A stretch of 64,000 nucleotides of DNA from a virus (IMGVR_UViG_3300028569_000019:32780-96779), one strand, 5' to 3'; numbered from the stretch's first letter, positions 33,353 through 57,792 are shown. The notes: generated by a model not told the origin, from the sequence alone. A program made the numbers and translations.

Positions 33353-33643
33353 ATGATACTATTAACAAGAATTATTGAAGATTTAACTAAACCACAGGTT
33401 AAAGAAGCAGTTGACCCATCTCTATTAAAATTAATAGATGAAGTTATTAATGATACAAACGTTTTAGTTGTTAATAATTTGAAAATGGTAAAGGATATTT
33501 TGTCAAAAGAACCAATTGACAAAGCTAAATTAGATGTGGCTCTAAGCAACTATAAACGTTATTTTAATAGAGACAATGGTGGTACACCCGAAGTAATTCG
33601 TGGTATGACTATGCAAAATAAACTAGACGAGTTATCAAAATGA
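33353..33643 (+). CDS. Hypothetical protein with shared N-terminal leader
   Basis: Preceded by TATTTATA; starts MILLTRIIE. Confidence 0.65.
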   Translation: MILLTRIIEDLTKPQVKEAVDPSLLKLIDEVINDTNVLVVNNLKMVKDILSKEPIDKAKLDVALSNYKRYFNRDNGGTPEVIRGMTMQNKLDELSK

Positions 33644-34425
33644 TTAGTTTAACCGATCTATTGTTAGAAGCCAAACTTCCTCAAAGCGAGCAAGATATGG
33701 ATCTTTATGCCCGCAAATACAAAAAGACTATAGATTATTTACGTACTAAAAACAAAGTACTATTACTAACTACTAGTAATAGATGGAGTCAACACAAAGA
33801 CGATGTTCCAAAGAGTACTCAATTAGCAATTAAGATACAAGAACTATTGGGTAAAGAAAAAGTCACATTGATTGAAGTACCTAGTTTAAATATAGCTCCT
33901 TGCGAAGGTAATGTTAGTAGCAATTTGAAGTACGATGGAAATCATTGTGGTGTAAAAGGTGCGTTGCTTAAAGATAAAGATAAGAATCCAACCGGATATC
34001 ATCGTTGTTGGGCAAGTTTAAATAATAAAAACGATGAACTTTGGAAGATTACCAAAGAACTATTTGAAAGTGATTGCGTTGTATTTTTTGCTAGTGTTAG
34101 ATGGGGTCAAGCCAATGGTTACTATCAGAAATTAATTGAAAGATTAACTTGGATTGAAAATAGACATTCTACATTGGGCGAAAAGAATGTTGTACAAGAT
34201 ATTGAATCTGGATTCATTGCAGTTGGACAAAACTGGCACGGTAAACAAGTTGTAGAAACACAAAGAGCTGTGTTGGGAGATTATTATAAATTTAAAACCC
34301 CAGATCAATTATTTTGGAATTGGCAATTTACACAAGATGATACAGACGAAACCAAACGTTCGTATGATAAATCGATCAGAGTATTTGATAAAACATTTTT
34401 AAAACCATATGATAAGACTAAATAA
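33640..34425 (+). CDS. Flavodoxin-fold / NADPH-FMN reductase (iron-sulfur flavoprotein/WrbA-like)
   Basis: VLLLTTSNR, IAPCEGNVS..HC..RCW and ESDCVVFFASVRWG...KLIERL motifs. Confidence 0.75.
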   Translation: MISLTDLLLEAKLPQSEQDMDLYARKYKKTIDYLRTKNKVLLLTTSNRWSQHKDDVPKSTQLAIKIQELLGKEKVTLIEVPSLNIAPCEGNVSSNLKYDGNHCGVKGALLKDKDKNPTGYHRCWASLNNKNDELWKITKELFESDCVVFFASVRWGQANGYYQKLIERLTWIENRHSTLGEKNVVQDIESGFIAVGQNWHGKQVVETQRAVLGDYYKFKTPDQLFWNWQFTQDDTDETKRSYDKSIRVFDKTFLKPYDKTK

Positions 34426-35263
34426 CATTTTAAGTGAAGTAATACAAGAAGGTGGTGCCGGAGGTCATAGGAATTTAGTTAATGAAAATAACGGCACTGT
34501 ATGTTGTGTAATTTGTAATAAATGGTTTGGTCAAATAACTAAAAACCATTTAAAATTTAAACATAACATTTCATTAGAAGAATATGTTCAAAAATATAAT
34601 GTTCCCACAATCGCGGAAAGTAAAAAAAATATCGGTGATAAAAACCCGATGAAAACTTATTTAAATAAAAATAAATGGGAAAAAATAATTAAATCTGAAG
34701 AACATAAGCAAAAACAACGAACGATATCTTTAAATCACATTTCTTCTTTATCGGAAGAAGAAAAGAAAAAATATAATGGTTGGAAAAATGATAATATAGA
34801 CAAAGATAATTTCAGAAAAAAAGTATCCGTGGGTGTTAAAAAAAGCTATGAAAATACAGAACTCCGAGTTTTGAGAAGTAATACTATAGGTTTAATTGGA
34901 AAGAAAAATTTATTAGAAAGATATAATGAAAAAATAAAAATGGGTGAATGGATTTCCCCGGAAAATAAAACCGATTATATTGGTTACAGAGATAGAGTAA
35001 GAAAACTTACAGACGAAAATTTTCAAAAACAGTTTTTAAATATAAAAAATGCTAAACTTAGAGGCAATGGTTGGGATTTAGATCATAAAATCAGTATTCA
35101 TTATGGTTTTAAAAATCATATACCTGAAGAGCATATATCACATATTAAAAATCTGGAAATGTTACCATCAAAAATAAATTATAAAAAAGGTAGTAATTGT
35201 TCTATGTCATACGAATCATTATTAGAATCAATAGAAAAGGAAAATTATGATAAAAATATCTAA
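34409..35263 (+). CDS. HNH homing endonuclease fused to a captured 20-aa N-terminus
   Basis: CVIC..HLKFKH zinc finger; WDLDHKISI...NLEMLPSKIN..KG HNH core; N-terminus ...EGGAGGH is duplicated in the next gene. Confidence 0.8.
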   Translation: MIRLNNILSEVIQEGGAGGHRNLVNENNGTVCCVICNKWFGQITKNHLKFKHNISLEEYVQKYNVPTIAESKKNIGDKNPMKTYLNKNKWEKIIKSEEHKQKQRTISLNHISSLSEEEKKKYNGWKNDNIDKDNFRKKVSVGVKKSYENTELRVLRSNTIGLIGKKNLLERYNEKIKMGEWISPENKTDYIGYRDRVRKLTDENFQKQFLNIKNAKLRGNGWDLDHKISIHYGFKNHIPEEHISHIKNLEMLPSKINYKKGSNCSMSYESLLESIEKENYDKNI

Positions 35264-36299
35264 ACTTTTAGTTTCTTTATTTGAAAATAAAAAACTATTA
35301 ACTTGTGGCGGGGCGGGAGGTCATATGGCACATCCATTTGATTTTGTTGATACTGGTGCTAAATTGGTAGATGTATTTGCGAAAGCAGTAAAGTCTTTGA
35401 AGCAAGGCGCCGGCAGTGTAAAGATTGACGGTGTTAATGCAAGTATCCGCATGGTAAACGGTCAATTTGTAATGGATCGTGGATCAGCAAAACCACTTGA
35501 TATCAAAGGAATGAGACCTGAAGATTTGGAGACAAGATTTGGGGCTGGTCACGGATTTGTTAATATAGGTGCTAAAGTTATTAATATTTTTGACGCTGCA
35601 GTTCCGTCTACGCAATCTGAATTGAAAACGCTTGGGTTACTAGATAATCCTAATATACTATTCAACATTGAATATGTAGAGGGACAAACAAATGTATTGG
35701 GATATGGTGAAATTGGAAACTTTTTAGCTATCCACGGATTAAAAGAAATTAAACCAAAAACATTTGGTAAAGATGGAAGTGTTAAATCAAGAGAAGCCGT
35801 TGAAATACCATATGATAAAACAGCAATGCAGTCTTATATAAACAAATTAAATAAGGTTGCTATGAAGAGTGGTTTTAAGGTATTGGGTAGCATTGACACT
35901 ACTTTCAAATCAGAACCAAAACTAGCAAGCGTTTTGACGCAGCCAGTTACATTGTATCCTACTGGCGAAGCTGTAACTAAGTCTTTGAAAGATTGGTTAA
36001 AAGGATTAAAGTTTAAAACTCCTCTTATTACACGTGAACAATTTTTGAAGGCGGTTGATAGTAAGAATATCAGTCAAGAGTTTCCAGGTCAAGATGTAAA
36101 CAAAATAGTTAATGATACTATTGTTTATTTAACCACAATTAAATTGGGAGATGAAATATTAAAAAATGCTACCAGTGAAATTGGAGACTTGGAAAAACAC
36201 GAAGGTATAGTTGTAAGAGACTCAAGTATTTATGGCAATCCATTTAAAATTACAGGAAGTTTTATTATAAAAGGTCTTGGAAGTAAGTTTAAGAAATAA
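35247..36299 (+). CDS. ATP-dependent ligase/nucleotidyltransferase-fold protein
   Basis: KIDG (KxDG motif I), NIEY, EGIVVR (motif IV) and FKITG (motif V). Confidence 0.6.
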   Translation: MIKISKLLVSLFENKKLLTCGGAGGHMAHPFDFVDTGAKLVDVFAKAVKSLKQGAGSVKIDGVNASIRMVNGQFVMDRGSAKPLDIKGMRPEDLETRFGAGHGFVNIGAKVINIFDAAVPSTQSELKTLGLLDNPNILFNIEYVEGQTNVLGYGEIGNFLAIHGLKEIKPKTFGKDGSVKSREAVEIPYDKTAMQSYINKLNKVAMKSGFKVLGSIDTTFKSEPKLASVLTQPVTLYPTGEAVTKSLKDWLKGLKFKTPLITREQFLKAVDSKNISQEFPGQDVNKIVNDTIVYLTTIKLGDEILKNATSEIGDLEKHEGIVVRDSSIYGNPFKITGSFIIKGLGSKFKK

Positions 36300-36317
36300 A
36301 TTAAATACATATTTGTT

Positions 36318-37178: not shown

Positions 37179-37839
37179 TACTGGTAAAAATATAAAACTA
37201 AAAACGGGTAAATCTAATTTAGATATAGTTAGAAGTTATTTAAACGGGGAAAAGGCATTCGTACAAGTTGGCTATGATGCCAATTTAGAGAATAATAAAC
37301 GCAAAGAAGGTGACGAATGGGAGGACAGTCAAGGTCACAAATGGGTTTGGAAGAATAAAAGTAAACGTAGAGTTTCAAAACGTGCCACGATTATTAATGA
37401 ACAACGTTGTAAAACGTGTAATATGGACGTTCGATGGGGCAATTATTTGGACGACCGAGTTTGGCCCAAAACTGGATATTGTTATGATTGTTTTATCAAT
37501 TTTCAAACTGAACTAAAAATGATGGGAATGTTTGAAGTTTACAACGAACTACAGGATCTTAAAAACGAACGTAGTATTTTAGAAGATTACAAGAAAAAGT
37601 TTGAAGAAAGTAAAAAGTTCTGCGAAGAAAATAAAGATAAAGATGTTACATTTCTTGAGGAAGATGGATCGTTTGAAAAGTGGGATGGTAATATAGATTA
37701 CAATAAAATATTTGAAGATTTGACAAAGGATATAGGTGTCATTGACGTTCGATTGGAAGAATTGAATCTTAAAATAAAAGAGTACGAAGAGAAATATGAG
37801 TCAGCTAAATTTAAGAGAAATAATAAAGCAGGAGTATAA
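37168..37839 (+). CDS. Hypothetical Zn-binding protein upstream of terminase
   Basis: CKTC...CYDC plus a C-terminal coiled coil; overlaps the terL start. Confidence 0.65.
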   Translation: MKTNTGKNIKLKTGKSNLDIVRSYLNGEKAFVQVGYDANLENNKRKEGDEWEDSQGHKWVWKNKSKRRVSKRATIINEQRCKTCNMDVRWGNYLDDRVWPKTGYCYDCFINFQTELKMMGMFEVYNELQDLKNERSILEDYKKKFEESKKFCEENKDKDVTFLEEDGSFEKWDGNIDYNKIFEDLTKDIGVIDVRLEELNLKIKEYEEKYESAKFKRNNKAGV

Positions 37840-38629
37840 GAAGTGTATTGAGGATCCTATATACTTCATGAAGAAGTATGTTAAGATACAACATCCTATT
37901 AGAGGTACTGTTGGATTTGAACTTTATCCATTCCAAGAAGAAGCTTTACAAAACTTTGTTGATAATCAATTAAACATCGTTCTTAAGAGTCGTCAGATGG
38001 GTATCAGTACCCTTACAGCCGCTTATAGTTTGTGGTTAATGACATTTCATAATGATAAGAACATTCTTTGTATTAGTATTACGCAAGAAACAGCAAAAGA
38101 AATTGTCACTAAGGTAAGATTTGCGAATGACAATCTTCCGAGTTGGTTAAAAGTTCCTTGTGTAGAAGATAATAGATTATCATTGCGATTAAAGAACGGA
38201 TCTCAAATCAAAGCGGTTTCATCTGCTGGTACAGCTGGTCGTTCTTCTGCACTATCATTACTAATCATCGACGAAGCCGCATTTATCGATGGCATTGAAG
38301 AAATTTGGCTGTCGTCTCAATATACACTGTCTACTGGTGGTAGAGCTATTATACTAAGTACGCCGAACGGCGTTGGCAATTTCTTCCATAAAATTTGGGT
38401 TGAATCTGAAGAAGGCAAGAATAATTTTAAAACAATTAGATTACCTTGGCATTTACACCCAGAAAGAGATCAAACGTGGAGAGATAAACAAACTGAGTTG
38501 TCAGGAGTAAAAGGTGCAGCACAAGAATGTGATTGTCTATGGGGAGCGTCTACGATTAGAGTCAGAGATAAAACATCAGGAAAAGAATTTGATATTTCTT
38601 TAGAAAAATTGTATTCCGGAGAATTGTAA
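37796..38629 (+). CDS. terL: Terminase large subunit, N-terminal part + split intein N-fragment
   Basis: LYPFQ, KSRQMGIST (Walker A), LIIDEAAF (Walker B), LSTPNG; ends AQECD|CLWGAST... Confidence 0.95.
   Translation: MSQLNLREIIKQEYKKCIEDPIYFMKKYVKIQHPIRGTVGFELYPFQEEALQNFVDNQLNIVLKSRQMGISTLTAAYSLWLMTFHNDKNILCISITQETAKEIVTKVRFANDNLPSWLKVPCVEDNRLSLRLKNGSQIKAVSSAGTAGRSSALSLLIIDEAAFIDGIEEIWLSSQYTLSTGGRAIILSTPNGVGNFFHKIWVESEEGKNNFKTIRLPWHLHPERDQTWRDKQTELSGVKGAAQECDCLWGASTIRVRDKTSGKEFDISLEKLYSGEL
38534..38626 (+). mobile_element. Atypical split intein, IntN (31 aa)
   Basis: CLWGASTIRVRDKTSGKEFDISLEKLYSGEL: block A Cys1 followed shortly by a stop. Confidence 0.9.
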
Positions 38630-38650
38630 TCATATGTATTATACAAGAAT

Positions 38651-39403
38651 GTGATTGCAACCCATATGTGTGTACCTAAAAATTATGTAGCAGTCGGTTG
38701 GGATAAAATCAAGAAACAATTAAGTTGTGAAACTGATTTATATTCGTGTGAAGAAACCAAATCCGAATTGTTAAATGAAAATCATTATAAATTTTTATTT
38801 GGTCGTGCGAAGAATAGAACTCTGATAAAACAAAACCCAAAACTATATAAATCAATTCTTTTTCATACGCGTATTCTAGAAAATGCATTTAAACAACAAC
38901 AAAGTTACAAGGGATGGTATAATTTTTCTTATAGGATTCGTTTTATTGTTGAACATAATTACGATTTGACAAAATTAAAATGTCAATGTGGGAAGAAAAT
39001 AACATGGACGAAATATTGTCGTAGATGTCCGGAATATCATAAAACTCAAACTGGTAAAGTACATACTCCAGAAACAAAACAAAAAATGAGAGTATCCACA
39101 TTAAAGTATTTATCGGAAATAAAAGGTCAGATTATACCTCGTTATAATAAAAAATCAATACAACTAATTGAGGAATTTGGTAATACACATGGATATACAT
39201 TTAGACACGCTGAAAATGGCGGTGAAGTTTTTCTTAAAGAACTTGGTTATTTTCTAGATGCATATGATGAGAAAAATAATGTTGTGTTAGAAATATACGA
39301 AAAACGACACTACAAAAATGGTAAATTGAAACAAAGAGATTTTCAAAGAGAAAATGAAATTAAAAATTTGTTAGGATGTAAACTATTTACAATAGACATA
39401 TGA
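38651..39403 (+). CDS. Free-standing Vsr-like homing endonuclease between the split-intein halves
   Basis: CQC..CRRC, NUMOD3-like GKVHTPETKQKM and YFLDAYDEKNNVVLEIYEKRH. Confidence 0.8.
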   Translation: MIATHMCVPKNYVAVGWDKIKKQLSCETDLYSCEETKSELLNENHYKFLFGRAKNRTLIKQNPKLYKSILFHTRILENAFKQQQSYKGWYNFSYRIRFIVEHNYDLTKLKCQCGKKITWTKYCRRCPEYHKTQTGKVHTPETKQKMRVSTLKYLSEIKGQIIPRYNKKSIQLIEEFGNTHGYTFRHAENGGEVFLKELGYFLDAYDEKNNVVLEIYEKRHYKNGKLKQRDFQRENEIKNLLGCKLFTIDI

Positions 39404-39741
39404 TCGATCCAAATGTTAAACTGAATACTAAGTTTCAGATTTTGACTCCAACAGGTTACCAAGATTTTTTTGGAATGCGAAAAATAAAAAAGGATTGTTA
39501 CTATAAAATATTATTGAGTAATGGCAAAATAATAAAATGTTCGGACAATCATCCTTTTATATATAAAAATTCAGAACTACGCTCTCACGATATCAAAATC
39601 GGATCGAAAATATCGGGAGTAGATGGTGTAGATGTAGTTGTCATAACCATAGAAAAATTCGAAAATTCCATTGATTTATATGATATAGTAAACGTCTCCG
39701 ACGGCAATGTTTTTAATGTAGACGGAATTGTTTCACATAAT
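39400..39741 (+). mobile_element. Atypical split intein, IntC (114 aa)
   Basis: Block B CSDNHPF, block F LYDIVNV, block G VSHN, +1 Cys. Confidence 0.9.
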
Positions 39742-40619: not shown

Positions 40620-43568
40620 ATGTCAGATAAATCTTTTCAAGAATTAAGAAGTCGATCTTTGTTTGCTCGTTTGAAGCGTTTGTTTTCAAACGACGTGATT
40701 GTTCGTAACGTTGGTGGTAAAAAATTAAAAGTTATCGACACTGATGAAATTCAGTATGCTACAGATCGTAATAGTTTAAGAGACCGTTTTAATAGATTAC
40801 GTACAACTTCGTATAATCAATATACAAGAGATTTCAATTTATCATATCAAAGTAGTCGTGTTGAATTGTTTAGAGATTATGACTGTGTTGGTCCTGATAC
40901 AATCATACCTCTACCAGACGGTACTAAACCAACTATAGCTCAACTAACGGAAAGATATAAAGATAATCCCCAGGAAAGATTCTATGTATTTTCATACGAT
41001 CACGAAACTGACAGTATAAAATTAGGCAAAGCATATCATCCTAGAAAGAAAGAAGGCGGTCCTAGAAAGTGTTGGAAAGTAATTTTTGACAATGGACAAT
41101 TCGTAATAGGAAGTGCCGGACATCCATTTTTAATGAGAAGTGGAGAATATAAAAAATTAGAAGATCTATCAATTGGCGAGTCTGTGATGCCTTTTTATCA
41201 AAAAGATTTCTACAACAATGGATATAGAAGTTTGTATAATTTTAGTAAAGGATGGCAAACAGAACATAAAATAGTCGCCGAACAATTTAATCGGGGATTA
41301 AGTTCTAACGAAGTTGTTCATCATAAAAATTTTGATAAAACAAACAATCTTCCGGAGAATTTACATATAATGTTAGACTCCGATCATAGAAAATTTCATG
41401 CGGAATTAAATAATAAAATTATTTGGTCGGTTGAAAATAAACAAAATACGTTAGAAAAGATCAAAAATTCAACTGGATATAAAAATAGAAAATTTCACAG
41501 ATGGAACGGAGATCGAGTTGATATAAACAATCCTTTTTATGGAAAACAACATTCCGTTGAATCAAATGATAAAAGATCTAATACTTTAAAAGAAATATTT
41601 GTTAATAGAGATCAAACCGGAAAAAACAATCCAAAATATAGAGATGATTTAACAATTGATATATTAAAAATTAAAGCGTTAAATTATTACAAACAACACG
41701 GAAAATTAACATCTTGGGGATTAGTTAAAGATTTAAATTGTGACTATTCGGTTCTACAGAATCGTTTGAAGAAAAATAACACCGAGTGGAAATCATTTAA
41801 AAATTATATAGAGTCATCTCTTAATCACAAAATCGTTGATATTGAGTATATAGGAGAAATAGAAGTTTACGATGTTACTGTTGAAAAGTATCAGAATTTT
41901 GCTACGGATTCTTGTTTCGTCCATAATACGATGGATATGGATCCAATTCTTGCATCTGCATTGGACATTTATGCGGATGAATGTACAACCCGAAATGAAA
42001 TGGGTGAAGTAATTCACATCAAATCTTCCAACGACGAAATTAAGAATATTCTACACAATTTGTTCTATGATATTCTAAATATCGAATTTAACCTGTGGAG
42101 TTGGGCACGTTGTATGGTTAAATATGGCGATTTTTACCTACGTCTTCATATTAGTCCTGATTATGGTGTTTATTTGGTAGAACCATTGAGTACATATTAT
42201 GTAACTCGCGTAGAAAATGCACATTTAACCAATAAAAACTTTGTTAAATTTCAAGTCAATTTGCCATACGGAAACAAATTGGAAGATTTGGAAAACTATC
42301 AAATTGCACATTTTAGATTATTGAGTGACAGTAACTTTCTACCATATGGAAAAAGTACTTTAGAAGGTGCTCGCCGTGTATGGAAACAATTGAGTTTGAT
42401 GGAAGACGCAATGTTAATTCATCGTATCATGCGTGCTCCTGAAAAACGTATTTTCAAAGTTGATATTGGTAATATTCCACCAAATGAAGTTGATAATCAT
42501 ATGCAACGCATTATGGACCAAATGAAAAAGGTTCCATATTTGGATCAACAAACTGGAGATTATAATTTAAGGTTCAATCTACAAAACATGGTAGAGGACT
42601 TTTTCTTGCCAGTTCGTGGTAGTGATAGTGGCACTAGTATTGAAAATTTATCTGGATTGGAGTGGACAGGTACAGATGATATTGAGTACCTTCGTAATAA
42701 AATGATGGCAGCACTTAAGATACCCAAAGCATTTTTGGGGTATGACGAATCTTTGAGTGGTAAAGCTACATTGGCAGCTGAAGACATAAGATTTGCTAGA
42801 ACAGTACAACGTATACAACGTATTATGGTTAGCGAATTGAATAAAATTGCAGTTATTCATTTGTACAGTCAAGGATATAGAGATGAGTCGTTGGTAGATT
42901 TTACTCTTGAGTTGACTAATCCATCCACTATCTTTGAAAAAGAAAAAATAGATGTATACAAGAGTAAAGTTGAACTTTGCAAAGATATGCAAGAACAAAA
43001 AGTATTTTCTAAGAAGTGGATTTATGAAAATATTTTCGGTTTGTCAGATCAAGATATGATATCCTTACAAAAGCAACTAATTGACGATGCTAAAGGAAAT
43101 TATAGATTTAAGCAAATCGAAGAAGACGGTAATGATCCAGCTTTGTCATTTTTAAATAAAAACGATAAAGGCGACCAAGGCGCAGGCGGTGGATCTGAGC
43201 CAGGTCCAGGAGCTGAACCTGGAGCAAATTCTGCTCCAGAAAGTGGAGCTGAAGCTGGTGGGGCGGGTGATACAGAAACTAAAGCTGGTGCTGAAAAATC
43301 AACTCCACCAAAATTAGCAGAAAAACGTGATCAAACAGGCAGAAAAGATGCTAGTAAATATCCATTTGGAGAAGATCCGTTTGGCACATTGGAAAACAAT
43401 AGACGCAGTGATTTATCAGTATCACACAAATATAAGAATGGATCTCCGTTGTCATTGGAGTCTATTAAGGGATTGACCGATTTGTTGAAAACATTGGATC
43501 AAGAAAAAGAAATTTTAAGAGAAGGAAACGAAAAATCTTTTATGGATGAACAAAATATAAAAGAATAG
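40620..43568 (+). CDS. gp20: Portal protein containing an intein
   Basis: MDMDPILASALDIYADE, LMEDAMLIHRIMRAPEKRIFKVDIGN, EDFFLPVRG and ALKIPKAFL motifs. Confidence 0.95.
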   Translation: MSDKSFQELRSRSLFARLKRLFSNDVIVRNVGGKKLKVIDTDEIQYATDRNSLRDRFNRLRTTSYNQYTRDFNLSYQSSRVELFRDYDCVGPDTIIPLPDGTKPTIAQLTERYKDNPQERFYVFSYDHETDSIKLGKAYHPRKKEGGPRKCWKVIFDNGQFVIGSAGHPFLMRSGEYKKLEDLSIGESVMPFYQKDFYNNGYRSLYNFSKGWQTEHKIVAEQFNRGLSSNEVVHHKNFDKTNNLPENLHIMLDSDHRKFHAELNNKIIWSVENKQNTLEKIKNSTGYKNRKFHRWNGDRVDINNPFYGKQHSVESNDKRSNTLKEIFVNRDQTGKNNPKYRDDLTIDILKIKALNYYKQHGKLTSWGLVKDLNCDYSVLQNRLKKNNTEWKSFKNYIESSLNHKIVDIEYIGEIEVYDVTVEKYQNFATDSCFVHNTMDMDPILASALDIYADECTTRNEMGEVIHIKSSNDEIKNILHNLFYDILNIEFNLWSWARCMVKYGDFYLRLHISPDYGVYLVEPLSTYYVTRVENAHLTNKNFVKFQVNLPYGNKLEDLENYQIAHFRLLSDSNFLPYGKSTLEGARRVWKQLSLMEDAMLIHRIMRAPEKRIFKVDIGNIPPNEVDNHMQRIMDQMKKVPYLDQQTGDYNLRFNLQNMVEDFFLPVRGSDSGTSIENLSGLEWTGTDDIEYLRNKMMAALKIPKAFLGYDESLSGKATLAAEDIRFARTVQRIQRIMVSELNKIAVIHLYSQGYRDESLVDFTLELTNPSTIFEKEKIDVYKSKVELCKDMQEQKVFSKKWIYENIFGLSDQDMISLQKQLIDDAKGNYRFKQIEEDGNDPALSFLNKNDKGDQGAGGGSEPGPGAEPGANSAPESGAEAGGAGDTETKAGAEKSTPPKLAEKRDQTGRKDASKYPFGEDPFGTLENNRRSDLSVSHKYKNGSPLSLESIKGLTDLLKTLDQEKEILREGNEKSFMDEQNIKE
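40884..41927 (+). mobile_element. Cis intein (348 aa) with an HNH endonuclease
   Basis: RDYD|CVGPDT...SAGHPF...VYDVTV...FVHN|TMD; internal EHKIVAE..VVHHKNFDKTNNLPENL and a NUMOD3 motif. Confidence 0.93.
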
Positions 43569-45475: not shown

Positions 45476-46081
45476 ATGAAACAAGTACTGATAGATATTC
45501 TACCATTTGAATTCAAAAAAACATCTTTAAATGAATCTCTTAAAGATGGAAAATTATACGTAACCGGCGTATTACAACGTGCCGATGCAAAAAACCAAAA
45601 CGGCCGTGTATATCCAGAAGATGTACTAAAGAGAGAAGCTGAAAAGTATATGCAAAATTTCGTTAAACAACGTCGTGCTATGGGTGAATTGGATCATCCA
45701 GAATCATCTGTTGTTAACTTAAAAAACGTAAGTCACAACATCGTAGATATGGGATGGGAAAATAAAGATTTGGTTGGTACCGTCGAAATTCTACCTACAC
45801 CAAGTGGTAACATATTAAAAGATTTATTGCAATCAGGCATTCTTTTGGGTATCAGTAGTCGTGGATTGGGTAGTGTAAAGAAAGATATGAGAGAAGGAGC
45901 AGATGTTGTACAAGACGACTTTGATCTAATCGCATTTGATTTTGTAAGCAATCCAAGTACCCAAGGTGCTTTTATGTATCCACAAGGTAAAATCAACGAA
46001 GGAGTTGATCAACACAGAACAATTATTAACCCATATAATAATGTTGAAAGAATTATCCACAACATTCTATCAGAACTATAA
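45476..46081 (+). CDS. gp21: Prohead core protease
   Basis: NQNGRVYP, GELDHP, VSH, GISSRGLGS and DFVSNPS motifs. Confidence 0.95.
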   Translation: MKQVLIDILPFEFKKTSLNESLKDGKLYVTGVLQRADAKNQNGRVYPEDVLKREAEKYMQNFVKQRRAMGELDHPESSVVNLKNVSHNIVDMGWENKDLVGTVEILPTPSGNILKDLLQSGILLGISSRGLGSVKKDMREGADVVQDDFDLIAFDFVSNPSTQGAFMYPQGKINEGVDQHRTIINPYNNVERIIHNILSEL

Positions 46082-46093: not shown

Positions 46094-46531
46094 ATGAAAT
46101 TAAAACATTTACTAGAAAACTCTACTGAAGTAGCTTATAGCTCTCTTACCAAAGAAGAAAAATCAAAAATGGTTGGGGCTATTAAATCTTACAACGAATA
46201 TCGCAAAGGATTAAAAGCCGATTGCGTATATGAAACCGCACAAAAAATTATGGAGGCTGTTAATTTAGCAGAACGATATGCCATCAAAGAATGTGGCGAT
46301 TGGATGCAAGCCAAAATGGTTGAACGTGATATGAAGGAAATCAAGAGAGATGCTTCTAAAATGTACGAAGAAGCTCAAAAGATGAAAGAAATTGAAAAAC
46401 AACTTGAAATGTTATACGAACAAGTTGGTATGAGATTGGAACGTTATTTTGAAATTGCGGACTCAATGAATGAAGCTCCACAATCACAAACAAGTAACGT
46501 TACTATCAATCCATCGGCACAGAATCAATAA
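46094..46531 (+). CDS. Hypothetical helical protein with shared N-terminal leader
   Basis: Starts MKLKHLLE; ATATTTATA 4 nt upstream. Confidence 0.7.
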   Translation: MKLKHLLENSTEVAYSSLTKEEKSKMVGAIKSYNEYRKGLKADCVYETAQKIMEAVNLAERYAIKECGDWMQAKMVERDMKEIKRDASKMYEEAQKMKEIEKQLEMLYEQVGMRLERYFEIADSMNEAPQSQTSNVTINPSAQNQ

Positions 46532-47741: not shown

Positions 47742-48779
47742 ATGAGCGATCTATTAAAAGAAAGTATTGCGGATGCAAAGGCTGTTCGTGAAACAGCATT
47801 GGCAAATGCAAAAACCTTCCTTGAAGAAAGTTTTGCAAACAGCATGAAAGAAATGTTTGCTGACAAACTCAAAGAAGAAATGGCAGAAGAAGGCACCGAA
47901 GAAGAAGCCAAGATTGAAGAAAAGCTTGCATCTTCTAACATCGGTAAAGATGATAGTAACATTGCTTCTAAGCAACATCCAACTAAACCATCTCCTGCTG
48001 CAAATAAAAGCACAACTCCTGCTGGAAAGCAAGAATTCGACGTAAAGCTTGAAGAAGAAGCTGCGGTTGAAGAAGGTACCGAAGTAACAAGTCAAGAACT
48101 AGATGAAATTCTAGCTGAATTGGAAACTGAAGTATCTGAAGAAACAGAAGCTGACGAAGAAGCTTCTTCTGAAGAAGGCGACGACGTTGACGAATCTATT
48201 AATTTAGACGAACTTCTAGCAGAACTAGAAGCTGAAGATTCCGCTATGCCAGCACCTGCTCCAGCACCTGTTGATCCAGCTGCTCAAGTACCAGCTGCTC
48301 CAGCACAAGTTCCATCTCCATCTGAAGGAGAAGTTACTGCTGACGAAATGGCAGAAGCTTTGGTTGCTATCAATGAAGAAAACGAATCTCTTAAGAAACA
48401 ACTATCAGAAGCTCTAAGTACAGTTAAGTTTATGAAGGGCGTTCTATCTGAAACCAACCTATTGAATGCTAAGTTGCTTTATACCAACAAGTTGTTCAAG
48501 GGTAAGAGTTTGACCGAAGATCAAAAACTTAAGATCATTAACACTTTCGACTTGACCAAGAACATTCGCGAAGTCAAGTTGGCATATACAGTTTTAGCCG
48601 AATCATTTAATTCCGGTGCATCAGTTGTCAAGAAAAAAACCAATACAACTGCTCACACTATCACCGAAGGTTTGGCAAGCAAACAAGTATCATCAACTAA
48701 ACCTGACTCTACCATTGTAGAACCTCAAGCTGATGTGATGACTTCAAGATTCCAAAAACTCGCAGGAATCAAGAAGTAA
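47742..48779 (+). CDS. Prohead scaffold/core protein (gp22-like)
   Basis: Very acidic coiled coil directly upstream of the capsid gene; ends RFQKLAGIKK. Confidence 0.8.
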   Translation: MSDLLKESIADAKAVRETALANAKTFLEESFANSMKEMFADKLKEEMAEEGTEEEAKIEEKLASSNIGKDDSNIASKQHPTKPSPAANKSTTPAGKQEFDVKLEEEAAVEEGTEVTSQELDEILAELETEVSEETEADEEASSEEGDDVDESINLDELLAELEAEDSAMPAPAPAPVDPAAQVPAAPAQVPSPSEGEVTADEMAEALVAINEENESLKKQLSEALSTVKFMKGVLSETNLLNAKLLYTNKLFKGKSLTEDQKLKIINTFDLTKNIREVKLAYTVLAESFNSGASVVKKKTNTTAHTITEGLASKQVSSTKPDSTIVEPQADVMTSRFQKLAGIKK

Positions 48780-48832: not shown

Positions 48833-50659
48833 ATGAGTATGGATGTAAAAAGTCTATTGACAAACAATATGAATCCACAAGCCAAATTGATGGCTGAAAC
48901 ACGTGGACTACAATCAAAATGGGAAAAGACAGGCCTTCTAGAAGGTTGCGCTGGTGTCGAAAAGGCACATATGTCAATCCTATTGGAAAACCAAGCAAAG
49001 CAATTGCTTGACGAAGCAACCACAACTGGTACCTCCACCAGTTCTGAACAATGGGCTGGCGTAGCTCTTCCATTGGTTCGTCGTGTGTTCGCTGAAATCG
49101 CTGCGAAGGAATTCGTAAGCGTTCAACCAATGAACCTACCATCAGGTCTAATTTTCTATCTAGACTTCAAGTATGGTACAAACGCTCCTGGTCAAGATTT
49201 GCGTAACTTGAACAACGGTAGTTCTGTAACTACCCGTGCTGGTAAGCAATTGAACGATAGTTTGTTCGGTGGTACAGGCAAGAAGTTGGGTTCTACCGAT
49301 GACGCTGTACGTGGTCTATACGGACAAGGCGCTTTCGCATATTCCGTTCGTCCAGTAAGTAGCTCTGTTATTACTTTGACAAAAACTGCCGGTACAACTG
49401 CAATTGGTAATACAATTCAAACTGCTTCTTGGAACGACGTACAATTTGCTGCTGAATTGAGTGCTTCCGTAGTAGCCAAGAAATTGTTCAAGGTTATCTT
49501 GAACCACGACGACAATACTACTCCTGTAGTCGGTCAAGGATATATGTACAACGTTGATTTGAATGCAGTACGTTCATTCAACTTGATCTCAGGTTCAACC
49601 GCACCAACTTCTCTAAGAAGTAATGGTTTGGTATTGAATACCTACACCAAAGCAATCAACACTGGTAGTTTGAGCAATCCATTCTATCAATCCGTATATA
49701 TCGTATCCGCTTCTAACAGCGCATTCGGTGGCGCAGCAAGCAACGTTAAGTTGATCTACAGTCTACAACCTACCGATAACCTACGTGGTGACTTCGAAGC
49801 TGGTAAGACCCCAGGTGAAGGTTCTGGTACCTCTGGTAACGTTGCTACACAAAGCATCGATACTGATATCAGTATTCCTGAAGTAAACTTGGTACTAAAC
49901 AGCGAACCAATCGTTGCTAAGACCCGTAAGTTAAAGGCAGTCTGGACCCCAGAATTGGCCCAAGACTTGAACGCATATCACTCCATCGATGCAGAAGCAG
50001 AATTGACTGCTCTATTGAGTGAATACGTATCTATGGAAATCGATCTAGAAATCCTAGAAATGTTGAACGAAGCCGTTCAAGGTATAACTACCGAAGCTTG
50101 GTCCGCCCAAATCGGTGTTGAATTCAGCAAGAGCATCAACGCAAACAATGGTGAAGCAATCTTCACACGTAATGCAAACGCTTCACCAAATCGTACTGCT
50201 TACGTAAAGAGCACTTGGTTCCAAACCCTTGGAAACAAGATTCAAAAGGTATCTAACACAATCCAAAAATTGACCCTACGTGGTGGTGCTAACTTCTTGG
50301 TCGTAAGTCCAGACGTAGCAACCATCTTGGAATCAATTCCAGGATATGTAGTAAACACTGACGGTGATCAAGCTAAGTTCGCAATGGGCGTTGCAAGAGT
50401 TGGTAGCTTCGCAAGTCGCTTCCAAGTTTATAAGAACCCATATATGACCGATAACGTTGTATTGGTTGGTTTCCGTGGAAATAACTTCCTAGAAACCGGT
50501 GCTGTATATGCTCCATATATCCCACTAATCCAAACTCCATTGGTCTATGATCCAGTGAACTTCACTCCACGTAGAGGTGTAATGACCCGCTACGCTAAGA
50601 AGGTCGTCAGACCCGAATTTTATGGAAAAGTTATTATCGGTGATCTCGATACCGTATAA
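48833..50659 (+). CDS. gp23: Major capsid protein
   Basis: KWEKTGLLEG, LLENQ, VQPMNLPSGLIF, KTRKLKAVWTPELAQDL, YAPYIPL and GVMTRY motifs. Confidence 0.97.
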   Translation: MSMDVKSLLTNNMNPQAKLMAETRGLQSKWEKTGLLEGCAGVEKAHMSILLENQAKQLLDEATTTGTSTSSEQWAGVALPLVRRVFAEIAAKEFVSVQPMNLPSGLIFYLDFKYGTNAPGQDLRNLNNGSSVTTRAGKQLNDSLFGGTGKKLGSTDDAVRGLYGQGAFAYSVRPVSSSVITLTKTAGTTAIGNTIQTASWNDVQFAAELSASVVAKKLFKVILNHDDNTTPVVGQGYMYNVDLNAVRSFNLISGSTAPTSLRSNGLVLNTYTKAINTGSLSNPFYQSVYIVSASNSAFGGAASNVKLIYSLQPTDNLRGDFEAGKTPGEGSGTSGNVATQSIDTDISIPEVNLVLNSEPIVAKTRKLKAVWTPELAQDLNAYHSIDAEAELTALLSEYVSMEIDLEILEMLNEAVQGITTEAWSAQIGVEFSKSINANNGEAIFTRNANASPNRTAYVKSTWFQTLGNKIQKVSNTIQKLTLRGGANFLVVSPDVATILESIPGYVVNTDGDQAKFAMGVARVGSFASRFQVYKNPYMTDNVVLVGFRGNNFLETGAVYAPYIPLIQTPLVYDPVNFTPRRGVMTRYAKKVVRPEFYGKVIIGDLDTV

Positions 50660-55742: not shown

Positions 55743-55787
55743 ATAATATAAATATTACTTTTTATAATTAAACCAATATTTATCAAT

Positions 55788-56390
55788 ATGATTAAATTAG
55801 GTGATTTGATGGACAATCAAGAGTTATGTAGTATGGCTCTTATCCAAAACGTGGTTATAAGCACAAATCTCAAGTATCATCTTGAAAAACAAATACCACT
55901 AAGTGAAAACATTTTTAGAACTTATAGCGATAGTTACTTTGAGTTGTTGGAAGAAGTTCGTACTTTATATTTCCAGAACCAAATTGAATTATGTGATTCG
56001 GACGCTGAATTGGTGGAAAGTGATCTTGGTAAGAAAGAACTCTTCGAAGGTAGAGAAGTTTATTTGGATGCACCTATTGAAGTAGAAGAAGATCTACTAA
56101 TGGAACTTAAGCATAGAGGACGTACCGTTAATTTAAGCAGACCATTTAGAACTCCAGGCGGTCCTAAAAAGTATGCTGTATATGTTAAATCCAAGAATGG
56201 CAAAGTTAAAAAAGTAACATTTGGAGATCCAAATATGAGAAGTAGAGCTAGTAGCAAGGCTCGTCGTAAGAGTTTTGCAGCTAGACACAGATGTAGTCAA
56301 AAGAAAGATCGAACAACCGCTGGATACTGGAGTTGCAGAAGTCATAGAATGAGATCACTAGGCAATAAAGGTAAAGGTAAATACTGGTAA
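55788..56390 (+). CDS. Conserved phage protein with a basic C-terminal domain (DUF6321-like)
   Basis: KKYAVYVK..GKVKKVTFGDPNM...RRKSFAARHRC...AGYWSC; acidic N-terminal half ending LLME. Confidence 0.6.
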   Translation: MIKLGDLMDNQELCSMALIQNVVISTNLKYHLEKQIPLSENIFRTYSDSYFELLEEVRTLYFQNQIELCDSDAELVESDLGKKELFEGREVYLDAPIEVEEDLLMELKHRGRTVNLSRPFRTPGGPKKYAVYVKSKNGKVKKVTFGDPNMRSRASSKARRKSFAARHRCSQKKDRTTAGYWSCRSHRMRSLGNKGKGKYW

Positions 56391-56656
56391 TGAGTCTACC
56401 GTTTATAGAAAACTCACTGGGCAACAATCAGTATATAAGAGAATTTAGTTCTGATGTAGATACGCACGAACTGGAATGGCATATAGATCGTGAAGACAGA
56501 ACAGTTGAAGTTATAGAAAATAACAATTGGCACTTTCAATTAGATAATAATTTACCACAATTGCTTAAAGAAACAATATTTATACCAAAAGAAACATACC
56601 ACCGTGTAATAAAAGGCACGGGCAATCTAAAAGTAAGAATAACAAAACACATATGA
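56390..56656 (+). CDS. Small cupin-like protein
   Basis: EWHIDREDR...IFIPKETYHRVIKG. Confidence 0.6.
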   Translation: MSLPFIENSLGNNQYIREFSSDVDTHELEWHIDREDRTVEVIENNNWHFQLDNNLPQLLKETIFIPKETYHRVIKGTGNLKVRITKHI

Positions 56657-57792
56657 AATTTATTGATTTATTAACCGAAGTTAAAATGTATGAAGCAATG
56701 GGTTTACCACCCGATAGTATAATGACATTGGATCAGTTTGTGAATTCATCAGGTCTAGAAGAAGCTGATATGACCCGTACAATGACTCCGGACGAAATGC
56801 AAGACTACCTCGCAAAAACCGCCGATGGTAAAAAGACAAAATTAGATAAGTACATGATGCCCTATGTACACAGAGGCAATATTGAAATTAAAGATGAAAA
56901 TGATCGTAAGTTTGATTTAGATAAATTGAAAGCAGCGATTATTACTCGTCCTACAAAGTTATTAAAACAAAATGAAAAGATTACCCATAGTGGAGGCGAA
57001 ACCGCACAATATTTCAATATAGGTTTGCCAGCTTTAAAAGGATTAGCAGTAAATGAAAAGACTGGCGATTTTATTGTAGTAGATACGTGTCCTGGCGCAG
57101 GTGCTTGTAAAGTATATTGTTATGCTAAAAAAGGCGGCTATGTACAATGGAAAGAAAGTTCAATGTCTCAAACCAAAGTATTGAACTTTTTGCTAAACGA
57201 TCCACAAGGATTTAAAGCAAAATTAGAATCCGAAATACAAACTGAAGTGGATAAGTTTGCTAAAAAAGGAGCTAAAGTAGTAATTAGATGGCACGATGCT
57301 GGTGATTTTTTCAGTCCAGATTATGTTGATTTAGCTTATAGTGTTGCCAGAAAGTTCCCACAAGTTGATTTTTATGCTTATACAAAAATGGCAGGTGTAG
57401 CAACTGGAAACAAGCCTAATAATTTTAAGATGAATTTTAGTATGGGTGCTACTCAAGATCAAGAAAAACAAATACAACCTAAGAGTACTAAACATTCTAC
57501 AGTAGTTCCAAAACCAATGTTTACCGATTTGATTTTGAAAGATAACAATGGCAAATTGATAAAAGATAAAGACGGTAAGATTCAATTTAAGTCGCCTGAG
57601 GCTATAGATACATTAAAAGATAAATTGTCTGCAAAATATGGCGTTCCTAAAGATAGCATCATTACATACGATGAGATGAAAGTAATTCCAGCTGGAAAAG
57701 AACCAAAGTGGAATGTTATAGTTAAACCAGGCGACGGCGATGAAAGTGCAAACAGAGCGGATGTAGTAGGTACTTGGTTATTAATCCACTAA
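56653..57792 (+). CDS. Gp88-like protein (Cys-triad, radical-SAM-like)
   Basis: TCPGAGACKVYCYA, IRWHDAGDF and FYAYTK motifs. Confidence 0.75.
   Translation: MKFIDLLTEVKMYEAMGLPPDSIMTLDQFVNSSGLEEADMTRTMTPDEMQDYLAKTADGKKTKLDKYMMPYVHRGNIEIKDENDRKFDLDKLKAAIITRPTKLLKQNEKITHSGGETAQYFNIGLPALKGLAVNEKTGDFIVVDTCPGAGACKVYCYAKKGGYVQWKESSMSQTKVLNFLLNDPQGFKAKLESEIQTEVDKFAKKGAKVVIRWHDAGDFFSPDYVDLAYSVARKFPQVDFYAYTKMAGVATGNKPNNFKMNFSMGATQDQEKQIQPKSTKHSTVVPKPMFTDLILKDNNGKLIKDKDGKIQFKSPEAIDTLKDKLSAKYGVPKDSIITYDEMKVIPAGKEPKWNVIVKPGDGDESANRADVVGTWLLIH

What the first reader, a model, noticed from the sequence alone, without database searches (positions are those of the whole stretch)
33353..57792. Shared N-terminal leader on unrelated proteins: possible capsid-loading signal
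Seen: MILLTRIIE (33353), MISLTDLLLE (flavoprotein), MIRLNNILSE (34409), MIKISKLLVSLFE (ligase fold), MKLKHLLE (46094), MIKLGDLMD (55788) and MKFIDLLTE (Gp88-like). Known: T4 internal proteins carry a roughly 10-aa capsid targeting sequence removed by gp21 after (I/L)-x-E, and a gp21 is encoded here. Inference: a general tag that loads enzymes into the head for injection.
Basis: partly seen in the sequence, partly recalled or inferred. Interest (0 to 1): 0.8.

Follow-up and report, generated by a model that had tools for sequence, protein, structure and literature searches.

The report
T4-style capsid-loading leader peptides
This uncultured giant lake phage, a distant relative of T4, starts about eight unrelated proteins with the same roughly ten-residue peptide that T4 uses to load proteins into its head and then cuts off, so they are probably packed with the DNA, though nobody has shown it.

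Summary
Observation confirmed. All seven N-termini sit at the stated coordinates. Three more (plus one candidate) lie outside the window on the same 96.8-kb contig.

A T4-derived pattern matches 8 of 95 N-termini against 0.58 expected, and 0 of 407 internal Met. Weaker tests were not significant.

The leader matches T4 ipII/ipIII, Alt and gp24 propeptides fetched from NC_000866. It is hydrophobic at positions 4, 7 and 8 with Glu at 10. Those are the four positions shown by mutagenesis to govern targeting and cleavage (PMC9026906).

The genome encodes a gp21-type S77 protease, portal and gp23 capsid protein. The same L-L-x-E motif occurs in the capsid propeptide and at the scaffold-like protein's start.

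Correction: the 34409 leader is the ligase-like gene's own leader, now heading an inserted HNH open reading frame.

Relatives keep the leaders and vary the tagged-gene array. A leader-bearing enzyme of cyanophage S-CREM2 was found in virions by published mass spectrometry.

Verdict: new member of a known kind. Packaging, cleavage and injection remain inferred. This scan noted the same thing on other genomes.

The parts
33353..33643 (+). 96-aa protein of unknown function; leader MILLTRIIE (33353-33379). First gene of a four-gene tagged array just upstream of the terminase genes.
   Evidence: In 47 orthologues positions 2, 4 and 7 are invariant, position 8 is I/V/L, and position 9 is E in 43 of 47.
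33640..34425 (+). 261-aa protein, flavodoxin/FMN-reductase-like (lead only); leader MISLTDLLLE (33640-33669), followed by Ala.
   Evidence: Pfam FMN_red E=0.0022, below the cut-off. Atlas lead: score 0.90 to a cluster that is 89% FMN_red. In 58 orthologues positions 3, 4, 6, 8 and 10 are invariant, positions 2 and 7 differ in 1 of 58 each (conservatively), and position 5 is free.
34409..35263 (+). 284-aa open reading frame. Its first 20 residues (MIRLNNILSEVIQE + GGAGGH) are the native start of the ligase-like gene. The rest is a Zn-finger/HNH-type endonuclease body that lies in an insertion (34470-35306).
   Evidence: 78 of 80 related loci start the ligase-like gene with this leader. blastn against L005 shows the insertion and a 19-nt duplication. 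The HNH body is absent from all 80 loci. Pfam ROS_MUCR 9.3e-5 (below cut-off), phrog_5104 2.3e-15. The HNH motif is read from the sequence by eye.
35247..36299 (+). 350-aa ligase-like nucleotidyltransferase with an alternative leader MIKISKLLVSLFE (35247-35285), then NKKLLTC, then the conserved GGAGGHMAHPFD.
   Evidence: Family alignment A1: invariant K59-x-D61-G62-x-N64, E319-G320, K334. Only weak ligase hits in Pfam. No PDB relative by sequence. The same leader allele occurs without the HNH gene in L065.
40620..43568 (+). T4 gp20-type portal protein interrupted by an intein with an HNH domain.
   Evidence: Pfam Portal_T4 3e-67, Intein_splicing 3.9e-12, HNH_3 4.1e-5 (below its cut-off).
45476..46081 (+). 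Prohead protease, T4 gp21 family (Peptidase S77). It is the presumed enzyme that removes the leaders. Its C-terminus ...NILSEL is conserved in relatives.
   Evidence: Pfam PF03420 7e-29, over the cut-off. Present in 5 of 5 long relatives. C-terminus.
46094..46531 (+). 145-aa charged (Lys/Glu-rich) protein directly after the protease gene; leader MKLKHLLE (46094-46117). Likely a prohead core or internal protein rather than an enzyme; the helical character is judged by eye.
   Evidence: The leader is conserved in G001 and G004. No family assignment.
47742..48779 (+). 345-aa acidic protein in the position of the gp22 scaffold. It starts MSDLLKE and holds 17 (L/I)-x-E sites.
   Evidence: N-terminus conserved in G001 and G004. 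No Pfam hit. The scaffold role is inferred from position and composition.
48833..50659 (+). Major capsid protein, gp23 family. The N-terminal propeptide region (about 48833-49015) carries GLLE(37), ILLE(52) and QLLDE|A(61).
   Evidence: Pfam Gp23 5.7e-73. BLASTP against T4 gp23 aligns residue 67 with T4 residue 84. Sites. Which site is cut is not known.
55788..56390 (+). 200-aa protein with a basic C-terminal domain; leader MIKLGDLMD (55788-55814), with Asp where the others have Glu.
   Evidence: phrog_7595 2.2e-15. The G001 orthologue has ...DLME, the G004 orthologue ...DLMD. The immuto homologue starts MIRLQEIVGL. The Melnitz homologue is the C-terminal module of a 650-aa leader-bearing polyprotein.
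56653..57792 (+). 379-aa GP88-family protein; leader MKFIDLLTE (56653-56679). A paralogue (70% identity) lies at genome 385-1527, outside the window, with leader MKFFSDLLNE.
   Evidence: Pfam PF17338 7.4e-32 and 1.9e-33. Mycobacteriophage homologues align only from residue 71 on.

Best explanation
The shared start is a T4-type capsid targeting sequence (CTS), meaning a short N-terminal propeptide.

Proposed mechanism:
- The leader forms a short amphipathic segment, hydrophobic at positions 4, 7 and 8.
- This docks the newly made protein onto the scaffolding core while the prohead assembles.
- The gp21-type protease (45476-46081) then cuts after the Glu of (L/I)-(L/I/M)-x-E, at about residue 8 to 14. 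This frees the mature protein inside the head.
- The freed protein leaves with the DNA at the next infection.

Cargo in this genome: a ligase-like nucleotidyltransferase, a flavodoxin-like protein, two GP88-family proteins, two 155-aa proteins, three small proteins of unknown function and, by capture of a leader, an HNH endonuclease. The tagged genes form a cassette array in front of the terminase genes, and its content differs between related phages.

Shown here: the motif, its excess over chance, its match to T4's leaders, the presence of the protease, and its conservation.

Inferred: binding to the core, cleavage, packaging and ejection.
For: 1. Excess over chance: R2 8 of 95 vs 0.58 +/- 0.73 (max 4 of 2000); 0 of 407 internal Met.

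2. T4 sequences fetched from NC_000866: ipII/ipIII MKTYQEFIAE|A, alt MELITELFDE|D, gp24 MAKINELLRE|S, gp22 MLKEQLIAE|A. They have the same length and the same phi4, phi7-phi8, E10 pattern.

3. PMC9026906, passages read. In IPIII, targeting depends on residues 4 and 7 and processing on residues 8 and 10. Asp at position 10 blocks processing but not targeting. Among 47, 58 and 79 orthologues of three tagged genes, variation falls mainly at positions 3, 5, 6 and 9. Positions 2, 4, 7 and the Glu are fixed or nearly so, and position 8 changes only conservatively.

4. S77 protease, gp20 portal and gp23 capsid protein are present. L-L-x-E recurs in the capsid propeptide and at the start of the scaffold-like protein.

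5. Paralogues 70-78% identical in the body have different leaders that keep the pattern. Codons differ between leaders.

6. In 37 relatives the array upstream of the ligase-like gene varies by whole cassettes. Nearly every cassette has a leader; 7 cassette copies in 7 loci did not match the pattern. Extra cargo in relatives: a Mom-family protein (1.1e-24) and a DnaJ-domain protein (1.5e-9).

7. In the ligase-like family, among the 150 best of 374 representatives, 94 of the 100 members with anything before the domain have phi-x-E exactly at the junction, and 27 start at the domain itself.

8. Other T4-like phages carry near-T4 leaders on the same kinds of protein. L102/L105: MKTFKQFVTE|A on an HxGH nucleotidyltransferase. 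Also Melnitz, S-SM2 and S-CRM01.

9. S-CREM2 ORF154 starts MKNFSSFLTE|A. It is listed in that phage's published virion proteome with 3 unique peptides (PMC10665884, Table 3 passages).

10. 0 of 5 replication or nucleotide genes in G001 carry the leader.
Against: - There are no experimental data for this phage or any close relative. No virion proteome exists and the host is unknown.
- Stricter or model-free statistics were not significant (at thresholds 15-20).
- In phage immuto, R2 gives 8 of 213 vs 1.70 +/- 1.31, and one or more of 1000 permutations reached 8. R1 gives 2 vs 0.38.
- The same test on 50 kb of T4 itself gives only 5 of 78 (max 6 in permutations) and missed Alt. The test has low power, and two of its T4 hits (e.6, gp2) are not known CTS proteins.
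- 55788 has Asp instead of Glu. 35247's alternative leader has its first phi-x-E only at residue 13. 46094's Glu is at residue 8.
- phi-x-E before GGAAGH could be part of the ligase-like domain rather than a cut site.
- The S-CREM2 authors themselves caution that such enzymes may be contaminants of the CsCl preparation.
- The contig is about 29% of the genome by CheckV, so most genes were not seen.
Confidence: 0.72

Rival explanations
1. The leader does target proteins to the prohead core, but the proteins are assembly parts (like T4 gp67, gp68 or gp22). They would be degraded or expelled at maturation, not delivered as cargo.
For: 46094 lies next to the protease gene, is small and charged, and matches no enzyme family. 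T4 core proteins also begin with (L/I)-x-E-type segments.
Against: Several tagged proteins look like folded proteins of 260-380 aa, some with conserved catalytic-type motifs: KxDG in the ligase-like protein, the GP88 family, Mom and DnaJ in relatives. The homologous tagged enzyme in S-CREM2 was detected in mature virions. (L/I)-x-E sites inside these bodies were not counted, so I cannot say how they compare with the 17 sites in the scaffold-like protein.
Confidence: 0.1
2. The leader is a recognition tag for some other phage or host machine, such as a modifying enzyme (as proposed elsewhere in this scan for an RB43 tag), a chaperone, or membrane or compartment sorting. It would not be a capsid signal.
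For: A DnaJ-domain protein occurs in the array of some relatives. Only about 29% of the genome was seen.
Against: No Radical_SAM match on the contig, while the control rang in 14 of 14 genomes. The leader is too short and too acidic for a Sec or Tat signal (read from the sequences). The match to T4's experimentally defined CTS positions, and the presence of the cognate protease, have no counterpart under this reading.
Confidence: 0.07
3. Chance plus bias. In an AT-rich genome (about 32% G+C) N-termini rich in Lys, Ile and Leu are favoured for translation start, and the eye picks out a pattern.
For: Many untagged genes also start MI.. or MK... Pair-score tests at higher thresholds and the EM test were not significant.
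Against: Permutation within each N-terminus keeps composition and still gives 0.28-0.58 expected against 8-9 seen. 0 of 407 internal Met match. The pattern is kept across paralogues and across distant phages of other composition, including T4. Codon choice differs between leaders.
Confidence: 0.05

Closest known systems
Capsid targeting sequence of phage T4 internal proteins IPI, IPII, IPIII and of Alt, removed by the gp21 prohead protease (Mullaney and Black 1996, as described in PMC9026906 and PMC5694885, passages read)
   Same: N-terminal position and about 10 residues in length. Hydrophobic at positions 4, 7 and 8, with Glu at the cut. Borne by otherwise unrelated proteins. A cognate S77 protease and a gp20/gp23 head are present. 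The tagged genes vary between related phages (PMC3012670 passage).
   Different: The phage is only distantly related (capsid protein 31% identical to gp23 over 249 residues) and is a giant phage of roughly 280-330 kb by CheckV share. More families are tagged (7-8 on a third of the genome). Cargo includes mid-sized enzyme-like proteins rather than mostly small basic proteins. The second residue is Ile or Lys, and residue 6 is Asp or Asn instead of Glu. Nothing has been tested experimentally.
Propeptides of ejection proteins in giant phages phiKZ, 201phi2-1 and SPN3US (PMC5694885, passages read)
   Same: A giant phage, a prohead protease cutting after x-x-E motifs, and many head-internal proteins.
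   Different: Those propeptides are mostly longer than 100 residues and the motif is (S/A/G)-x-E. Here the leaders are 8-14 residues with (L/I)-x-E, which is the T4 form.
Virion-associated NMNAT-like cytidylyltransferases of T4-like cyanophages (S-CREM2 ORF154; also S-CBWM1, S-SZBM1 and S-SCSM1 as cited in PMC10665884, passages read)
   Same: An enzyme with a T4-like leader (S-CREM2 MKNFSSFLTE|A, S-SM2 MKSFFQFLSE|A, S-CRM01 MKLFNQFFKE|A) found in virions by mass spectrometry. The same enzyme family is fused to, or adjacent to, the ligase-like family of 35247.
   Different: No such cytidylyltransferase was seen on this contig. According to the search listing (0 occurrences of 'capsid targeting'), that paper does not connect the enzyme's presence to a leader.

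Membership tests
T4-type capsid targeting sequence (CTS) / gp21-processed propeptide | At the extreme N-terminus, about 10-19 residues long | tested here: met
   All ten start at Met1. The Glu or Asp lies at residue 8-10, or 13-14 for the two ligase-gene leaders. 0 of 407 internal Met match.
T4-type capsid targeting sequence (CTS) / gp21-processed propeptide | Targeting determinants: hydrophobic residues at positions 4 and 7 (IPIII mutagenesis, PMC9026906) | tested here: met
   Position 4 is L, I or F, and position 7 (or 6 in the 9-residue form) is L or I, in the listed leaders; MKLKHLLE has Leu at 3, 6 and 7 in its shorter register. These positions are invariant or conservatively replaced in 47, 58 and 79 orthologues.
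T4-type capsid targeting sequence (CTS) / gp21-processed propeptide | Processing determinants: (L/I)-x-E with Glu at the cut (positions 8 and 10 in IPIII) | tested here: met
   Met with (L/I)(L/I)-x-E in 6 of the 10 leaders. In 33353 and 46094 the Glu follows the hydrophobic pair directly (IIE, LLE). Not met in 55788 (Asp). Met only at residue 13 in 35247's alternative leader.
T4-type capsid targeting sequence (CTS) / gp21-processed propeptide | Cognate prohead protease of the gp21 (S77) family and a T4-type prohead in the same genome | tested here: met
   PF03420 7e-29, Portal_T4 3e-67, Gp23 5.7e-73.
T4-type capsid targeting sequence (CTS) / gp21-processed propeptide | Same leader on proteins with unrelated mature parts | tested here: met
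   8 body families among 10 proteins; the only hits are two paralogue pairs.
T4-type capsid targeting sequence (CTS) / gp21-processed propeptide | Mature protein physically present in virions with the leader removed | not testable with these tools
   No virion proteome exists for this phage. The only experimental link is for a homologous class in S-CREM2.
T4-type capsid targeting sequence (CTS) / gp21-processed propeptide | The leader alone suffices to carry a foreign protein into the head | not testable with these tools
   This is a bench test.
Peptidase S77 (T4 gp21 prohead protease), for 45476-46081 | Profile match over the curated cut-off | tested here: met
   101.2 bits against a cut-off of 27. 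Catalytic residues were not examined.
ATP-dependent RNA/DNA ligase-type nucleotidyltransferases, for 35247-36299 | Motif I KxDG plus motifs IV and V, and a profile match to a ligase family | tested here: inconclusive
   K59-x-D-G-x-N, E319-G320 and K334 are invariant in 47 sequences. Pfam gives only RNA_ligase E=0.15 for this protein, and 1 of 47 members each for RNA_ligase and DNA_ligase_aden. No PDB hit. No fold model.
Sec/Tat signal peptides | Basic n-region followed by an uninterrupted hydrophobic core of 7 or more residues | tested here: not met
   The hydrophobic residues are interrupted by Asp or Asn at position 6 and end in Glu at position 10 (sequences). Judged by eye; no predictor was run.
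   No PF04055 match on the 96.8-kb contig. The contig is about 29% of the genome, so absence from the whole phage is not shown.

The most novel reading that the evidence does not exclude
The leaders mark a swappable, ready-made enzyme kit that the phage injects with its DNA. In this lineage and its relatives the kit includes a ligase-like nucleotidyltransferase, often fused or adjacent to an NMNAT-like enzyme. These would act on RNA damage or NAD+ loss inflicted by abortive-infection defences before any phage gene is expressed.

Mobile genes exploit the same address. Here an HNH endonuclease has captured a cargo gene's leader, so it may itself ride in the capsid and cut rival genomes on arrival.
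Probability: 0.2. Interest if true: 0.75.

Novelty: new member of a known kind. Interest (0 to 1): 0.5.

Why it matters
If the leader works as in T4, the injected protein payload of uncultured T4-related phages can be read from sequence alone. For this abundant freshwater lineage (202 related stretches confirmed in IMG/VR, 80 kept) it predicts that enzymes, not only small DNA-binding proteins, enter the cell with the DNA.

That gives a concrete list of candidate early counter-defence or takeover factors, and a simple test for each. The variable cassette array and the leader captured by a mobile endonuclease show how new cargo could be recruited.

The mechanism itself is already known from T4, and reviews anticipate its wider use (PMC9026906). 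The gain is therefore in reach and in the cargo list, not in principle.

Tried and rejected
- Motif discovery by my own ZOOPS EM was uninformative. It gave a diffuse model and a score inside the null range (an earlier version timed out).
- The pair-score test gave support only at the lowest threshold (the first version timed out).
- Functions for the cargo:
  - Pfam and PHROGs gave nothing for 33353, the 155-aa pair or 46094.
  - PDB sequence searches gave nothing for 35247, 56653, 33640 or profile A1.
  - tblastn against 50,697 phage records found no match for 35247, the 155-aa protein or 33640.
  - The ADP-ribosyltransferase idea for the 155-aa pair rests only on an Atlas lead: score 0.91 to a cluster in which 23% carry ART-PolyVal. 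I do not claim it.
- My idea that the HNH element brought the replacement leader is not established. L065 has that leader allele without the HNH gene.
- Atu_ph07 virion proteomics: the main text gives only clusters. The per-protein list is Supplementary Table S5, which is closed, so I dropped this check.
- No paper on phage Mel-JY01 is in the library.
- Two searches listed no paper describing sets of CTS-type leaders outside the T-even and phiKZ-like phages. This covers only the held library.

Full report
WHAT THE WINDOW IS. The window is the right-hand 64 kb of a single 96,779-bp virus contig. G+C is about 29-38%. CheckV rates the contig as 29% complete. A 134-kb relative is rated 48% complete, so the phage genome is probably near 280-330 kb. 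It has a T4-type head module: a gp20 portal with an intein (40620-43568), an S77 gp21-type prohead protease (45476-46081) and a gp23 capsid protein (48833-50659). The nearest capsid proteins in 50,697 phage records belong to Microcystis phage Mel-JY01, Flavobacterium phage immuto, a 484-kb uncultured phage and Rhodothermus phage RM378, at 36-50% identity. This places it as a distant ("far") relative of T4.

THE OBSERVATION. The part of the contig outside the window adds three more (genome 385, 1531, 10348) and one candidate (19816). All-against-all BLASTP finds only two paralogue pairs, at 70% and 78% identity. All other pairs have E >= 0.037. So the leader heads 8 unrelated bodies.

STATISTICS. 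The post-hoc pattern R1 matches 9 of 95 N-termini, against 0.28 +/- 0.52 after permuting residues 2-12 within each protein (max 3 in 2000). It matches 0 of 407 internal Met and 29 of 27,082 internal windows. R2 was written from the T4 pattern before I fetched T4. It matches 8 of 95 against 0.58 +/- 0.73 (max 4). Those eight belong to six families.

Against this, ungapped pair scores beat all 500 shuffles only at threshold 12 (37 vs 16.6 +/- 3.9, max 29) and not at thresholds 15, 18 or 20. My EM motif finder was not significant: 150.8 against a null of 134.0 +/- 8.1, max 153.8. Run on 50 kb of T4 itself, R2 finds 5 of 78 (gp24, ipII, ipIII, e.6, gp2) with a permutation maximum of 6, and it missed Alt because of my ORF caller. 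So these tests have low power, and the signal here is stronger than in the T4 stretches sampled. Codons differ between leaders, so selection acts on the peptide.

ANATOMY AND COMPARISON WITH T4. I fetched T4 (NC_000866) and translated its genes. The N-termini are ipII/ipIII MKTYQEFIAE|A, alt MELITELFDE|D, gp24 MAKINELLRE|S, gp22 MLKEQLIAE|A and gp23 ...FLTE|A. The cut marks follow the (L/I)-x-E rule and the propeptide lengths given in the reviews. The leaders here include MISLTDLLLE|A, MIRLNNILSE|V, MILLKDLLIE|S, MKFFSDLLNE|V and, one residue shorter, MKFIDLLTE|V and MKLIDILTE|V. They share the T4 length and the pattern: hydrophobic at positions 4, 7 and 8, Glu at 10.

A review passage (PMC9026906, passages read) reports amber-suppression mutagenesis of the IPIII leader. 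Targeting depends mainly on residues 4 and 7 and processing on residues 8 and 10. Asp at position 10 blocks processing but still allows targeting. Among 47, 58 and 79 orthologues of three tagged genes in related contigs, changes fall mainly at positions 3, 5, 6 and 9. Positions 2, 4, 7 and the Glu are fixed or nearly so, and position 8 changes only among I, V and L. These orthologues are 79-94% identical overall, so the downstream residues are conserved too.

THE PROTEASE'S OTHER SUBSTRATES. The capsid protein's N-terminal 61 residues carry GLLE(37), ILLE(52) and QLLDE|A(61). The acidic 345-aa protein in the scaffold position starts MSDLLKE and has 17 (L/I)-x-E sites. The protease ends in NILSEL. 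All of this is conserved in G001 and G004. BLASTP aligns capsid residue 67 with T4 gp23 residue 84. Which of the three sites corresponds to T4's cut at residue 65 is not settled.

RELATIVES. A scan of IMG/VR with the 35247 protein confirmed 202 related stretches, and 80 loci were kept, at 79-95% identity. The orthologues keep their leaders. In the 37 loci with at least 4 kb upstream of the ligase-like gene, the array varies by whole cassettes. Sixteen loci have 96-aa + flavodoxin-like + ligase-like, 11 add a 173-aa gene, 2 add a DnaJ-domain gene, 4 lack the 96-aa gene, and 4 have other arrangements. Nearly every cassette has a leader; 7 cassette copies in 7 loci did not match the pattern (L012 has five tagged genes in tandem).

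The 134-kb relative G001 adds a leader-bearing Mom-family protein (PF25680, 1.1e-24). Cultured phage immuto has MIKLIDLLTE|S, MISIYNILKE|V, MRLLELLRE|A and MKKLIRIVE|A. The last two lie just upstream of its terminase gene, as the array does here. Statistically immuto is weaker: R2 gives 8 of 213 vs 1.70 +/- 1.31 with a permutation maximum of 8, R1 gives 2 vs 0.38, and a looser R3 gives 27 vs 11.2 +/- 3.1 with a maximum of 22.

THE 34409 CASE. In 78 of 80 loci the ligase-like gene itself starts MI(R/K)LNNIL(S/N)EVIQE-GGAGGH. Against L005, the window carries an insertion at 34470-35306 flanked by a 19-nt duplication that encodes GGAGGH. The HNH body has no match in any of the 80 loci. So the 34409 open reading frame is the cargo gene's own leader fused to an inserted endonuclease. 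The ligase-like gene continues with a second leader, MIKISKLLVSLFENKKLLTC-GGAGGH. That second leader also occurs in L065 without the HNH gene, behind its own intergenic region. I therefore cannot say that the element brought it.

THE LIGASE-LIKE FAMILY. A search of 1.84 billion representatives gave 374 relatives. Among the 150 best:
- 54 have a short leader before the conserved GGAAGHMxHPFD, and 51 of these end in phi-x-E exactly at the junction.
- 46 carry the domain inside longer proteins, and 43 of these have phi-x-E at the junction.
- 27 start at the domain itself.
- In 23 my pattern did not find the motif.

The longer proteins carry cytidylyltransferase-like, DUF192 or amidase domains. 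This fits protease-cut junctions in cargo polyproteins, but the phi-x-E could also be part of the domain. The ligase assignment itself rests on invariant KxDGxN, EG and K motifs and weak Pfam hits. It is not established.

OTHER T4-LIKE PHAGES AND THE ONE EXPERIMENTAL LINK. A different low-G+C phage (L102, L105) has three adjacent genes: MSSFEKLIAE|Q, the ligase-like MISFKNYTLLQE|GGAGGH, and MKTFKQFVTE|A heading an HxGH nucleotidyltransferase. The last leader is almost T4's own. Methylophilales phage Melnitz has a cluster with MQGFKTFLSE|A, MKKFSEIIE|A and MKNFKNHIAE|E. The homologue of 55788 there is the C-terminal module of the 650-aa MKKFSEIIE protein. The cyanophage cytidylyltransferases start MKSFFQFLSE|A (S-SM2) and MKLFNQFFKE|A (S-CRM01).

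For S-CREM2, Table 3 of PMC10665884 (passages read) lists ORF154, a cytidylyltransferase at 124608-125468, in the virion proteome with 3 unique peptides. The text says NMNAT-like proteins were also found in virions of three other cyanophages. I fetched that gene, and it starts MKNFSSFLTE|A. It is the only R2 match among 31 coding sequences in that 21-kb stretch. The authors caution that such proteins might be contaminants. By the search listing, the paper never uses the words 'capsid targeting'.

This contig holds almost no replication genes, so I used relatives. In G001, Pfam identified RNR large and small subunits, a DnaB helicase, a 5'-3' exonuclease and RecA among 10 proteins scanned. None is among the 8 leader hits of that contig's 117 genes. 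In immuto, none of the annotated DNA polymerase (two genes), SSB, RecA, exonuclease, helicase, RNR or primase genes is among the R1 or R2 hits. One exonuclease and a nucleotidase match only the loose R3.

RIVALS.
- Assembly-only core proteins fit 46094 but not the enzyme-sized cargo.
- A tag for another machine is not excluded, because only about 29% of the genome was seen. No radical-SAM gene is on the contig, and no other reading explains the match to T4's mapped positions.
- Composition bias is answered by the permutation tests and by the cross-phage conservation.

WHAT IS KNOWN, AND NOVELTY. The mechanism is T4's CTS. Reviews already suggest it as a general way for T4-like phages to load varied proteins (PMC9026906; PMC3012670). 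Two library searches listed no paper describing such leader sets in distant T4 relatives. Earlier notes of this scan report the same kind of leader, and cargo polyproteins, on several other genomes. I class this as a new member of a known kind.

LIMITS.
- Supplementary tables were closed. Table S5 of the Atu_ph07 paper and the supplements of the cyanophage papers may hold per-protein virion data that bear on the class-level claim.
- Papers were read as search listings and passages only, not in full.

Noticed in passing
34409-35324: An HNH-type endonuclease body lies in an insertion (34470-35306) placed in frame after the first 20 codons of the ligase-like gene. A 19-nt duplication encodes GGAGGH. 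The downstream gene carries a second, different leader, which also exists as an allele without the HNH gene in L065.
   Followed up: partly
L061:744-2000: In one relative the 173-aa tagged gene and the flavodoxin-like gene are read as one 418-aa protein. The second leader (ISLNDLLLE|A) is kept internally. This may be a natural example of how cargo polyproteins with protease-site joints arise, or it may be an assembly error.
   Followed up: no
35247-36299 and proteins P0121-P0270: The ligase-like family (conserved GGAAGHMxHPFD, KxDGxN, EG, K) has 374 representative relatives in metagenomes but no tblastn match in 50,697 deposited phage genomes. It is often fused to HxGH cytidylyltransferase-like domains.
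   Followed up: partly
whole contig; e.g. upstream of 33353, 46094, 55788, 27807, 43625: A TATATTTAT-like word lies within 50 nt upstream of 30 of the 95 ORFs listed, usually a few bases before the ATG. These include the first gene of all six transcription units that hold tagged genes and several tail and head operons, but also homing-endonuclease genes. It is a possible promoter element. No Shine-Dalgarno-like sequence was noticed by eye.
   Followed up: no
37796-40593 and 40620-43568: The terminase-like reading frames are split by inserted ORFs, and the portal gene holds an intein with an HNH domain. GIY-YIG-like genes sit at 36375 and 50770. The head region is heavily colonised by mobile endonucleases.
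   Followed up: no
45476-46081 (C-terminus): The prohead protease ends in ...ERIIHNILSEL. This is conserved in G001 and G004 and repeats the NILSE of the ligase-gene leader. It may be a C-terminal self-processing or docking site, as discussed for T4 gp21.
   Followed up: no
genome 112-381 and 11032-11448 (outside the window); window 2870-3337: There may be a second, longer leader-like class: MTKNDLKKLIKSLTKE, MTKIQENKLRALIKRIIREE, MKIDVLKEFIKKTVQQE. Counterparts in phage immuto are MKKSELVKLIKEE and MKLDLLKKLIKEA. These were not counted among the tagged proteins.
   Followed up: no
G001 (L092:1273-2022) and L012:2915-3589: Relatives carry leader-bearing proteins absent here: a Mom-family protein (PF25680, 1.1e-24) and a DnaJ-domain protein (1.5e-9).
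   Followed up: partly
genome 1531-1998 and 10348-10818 (outside the window): Two 155-aa paralogues (78% identical) have quite different leaders. The protein atlas points weakly to clusters with ART-PolyVal (23% of members). Pfam, PHROGs and tblastn give nothing.
   Followed up: partly
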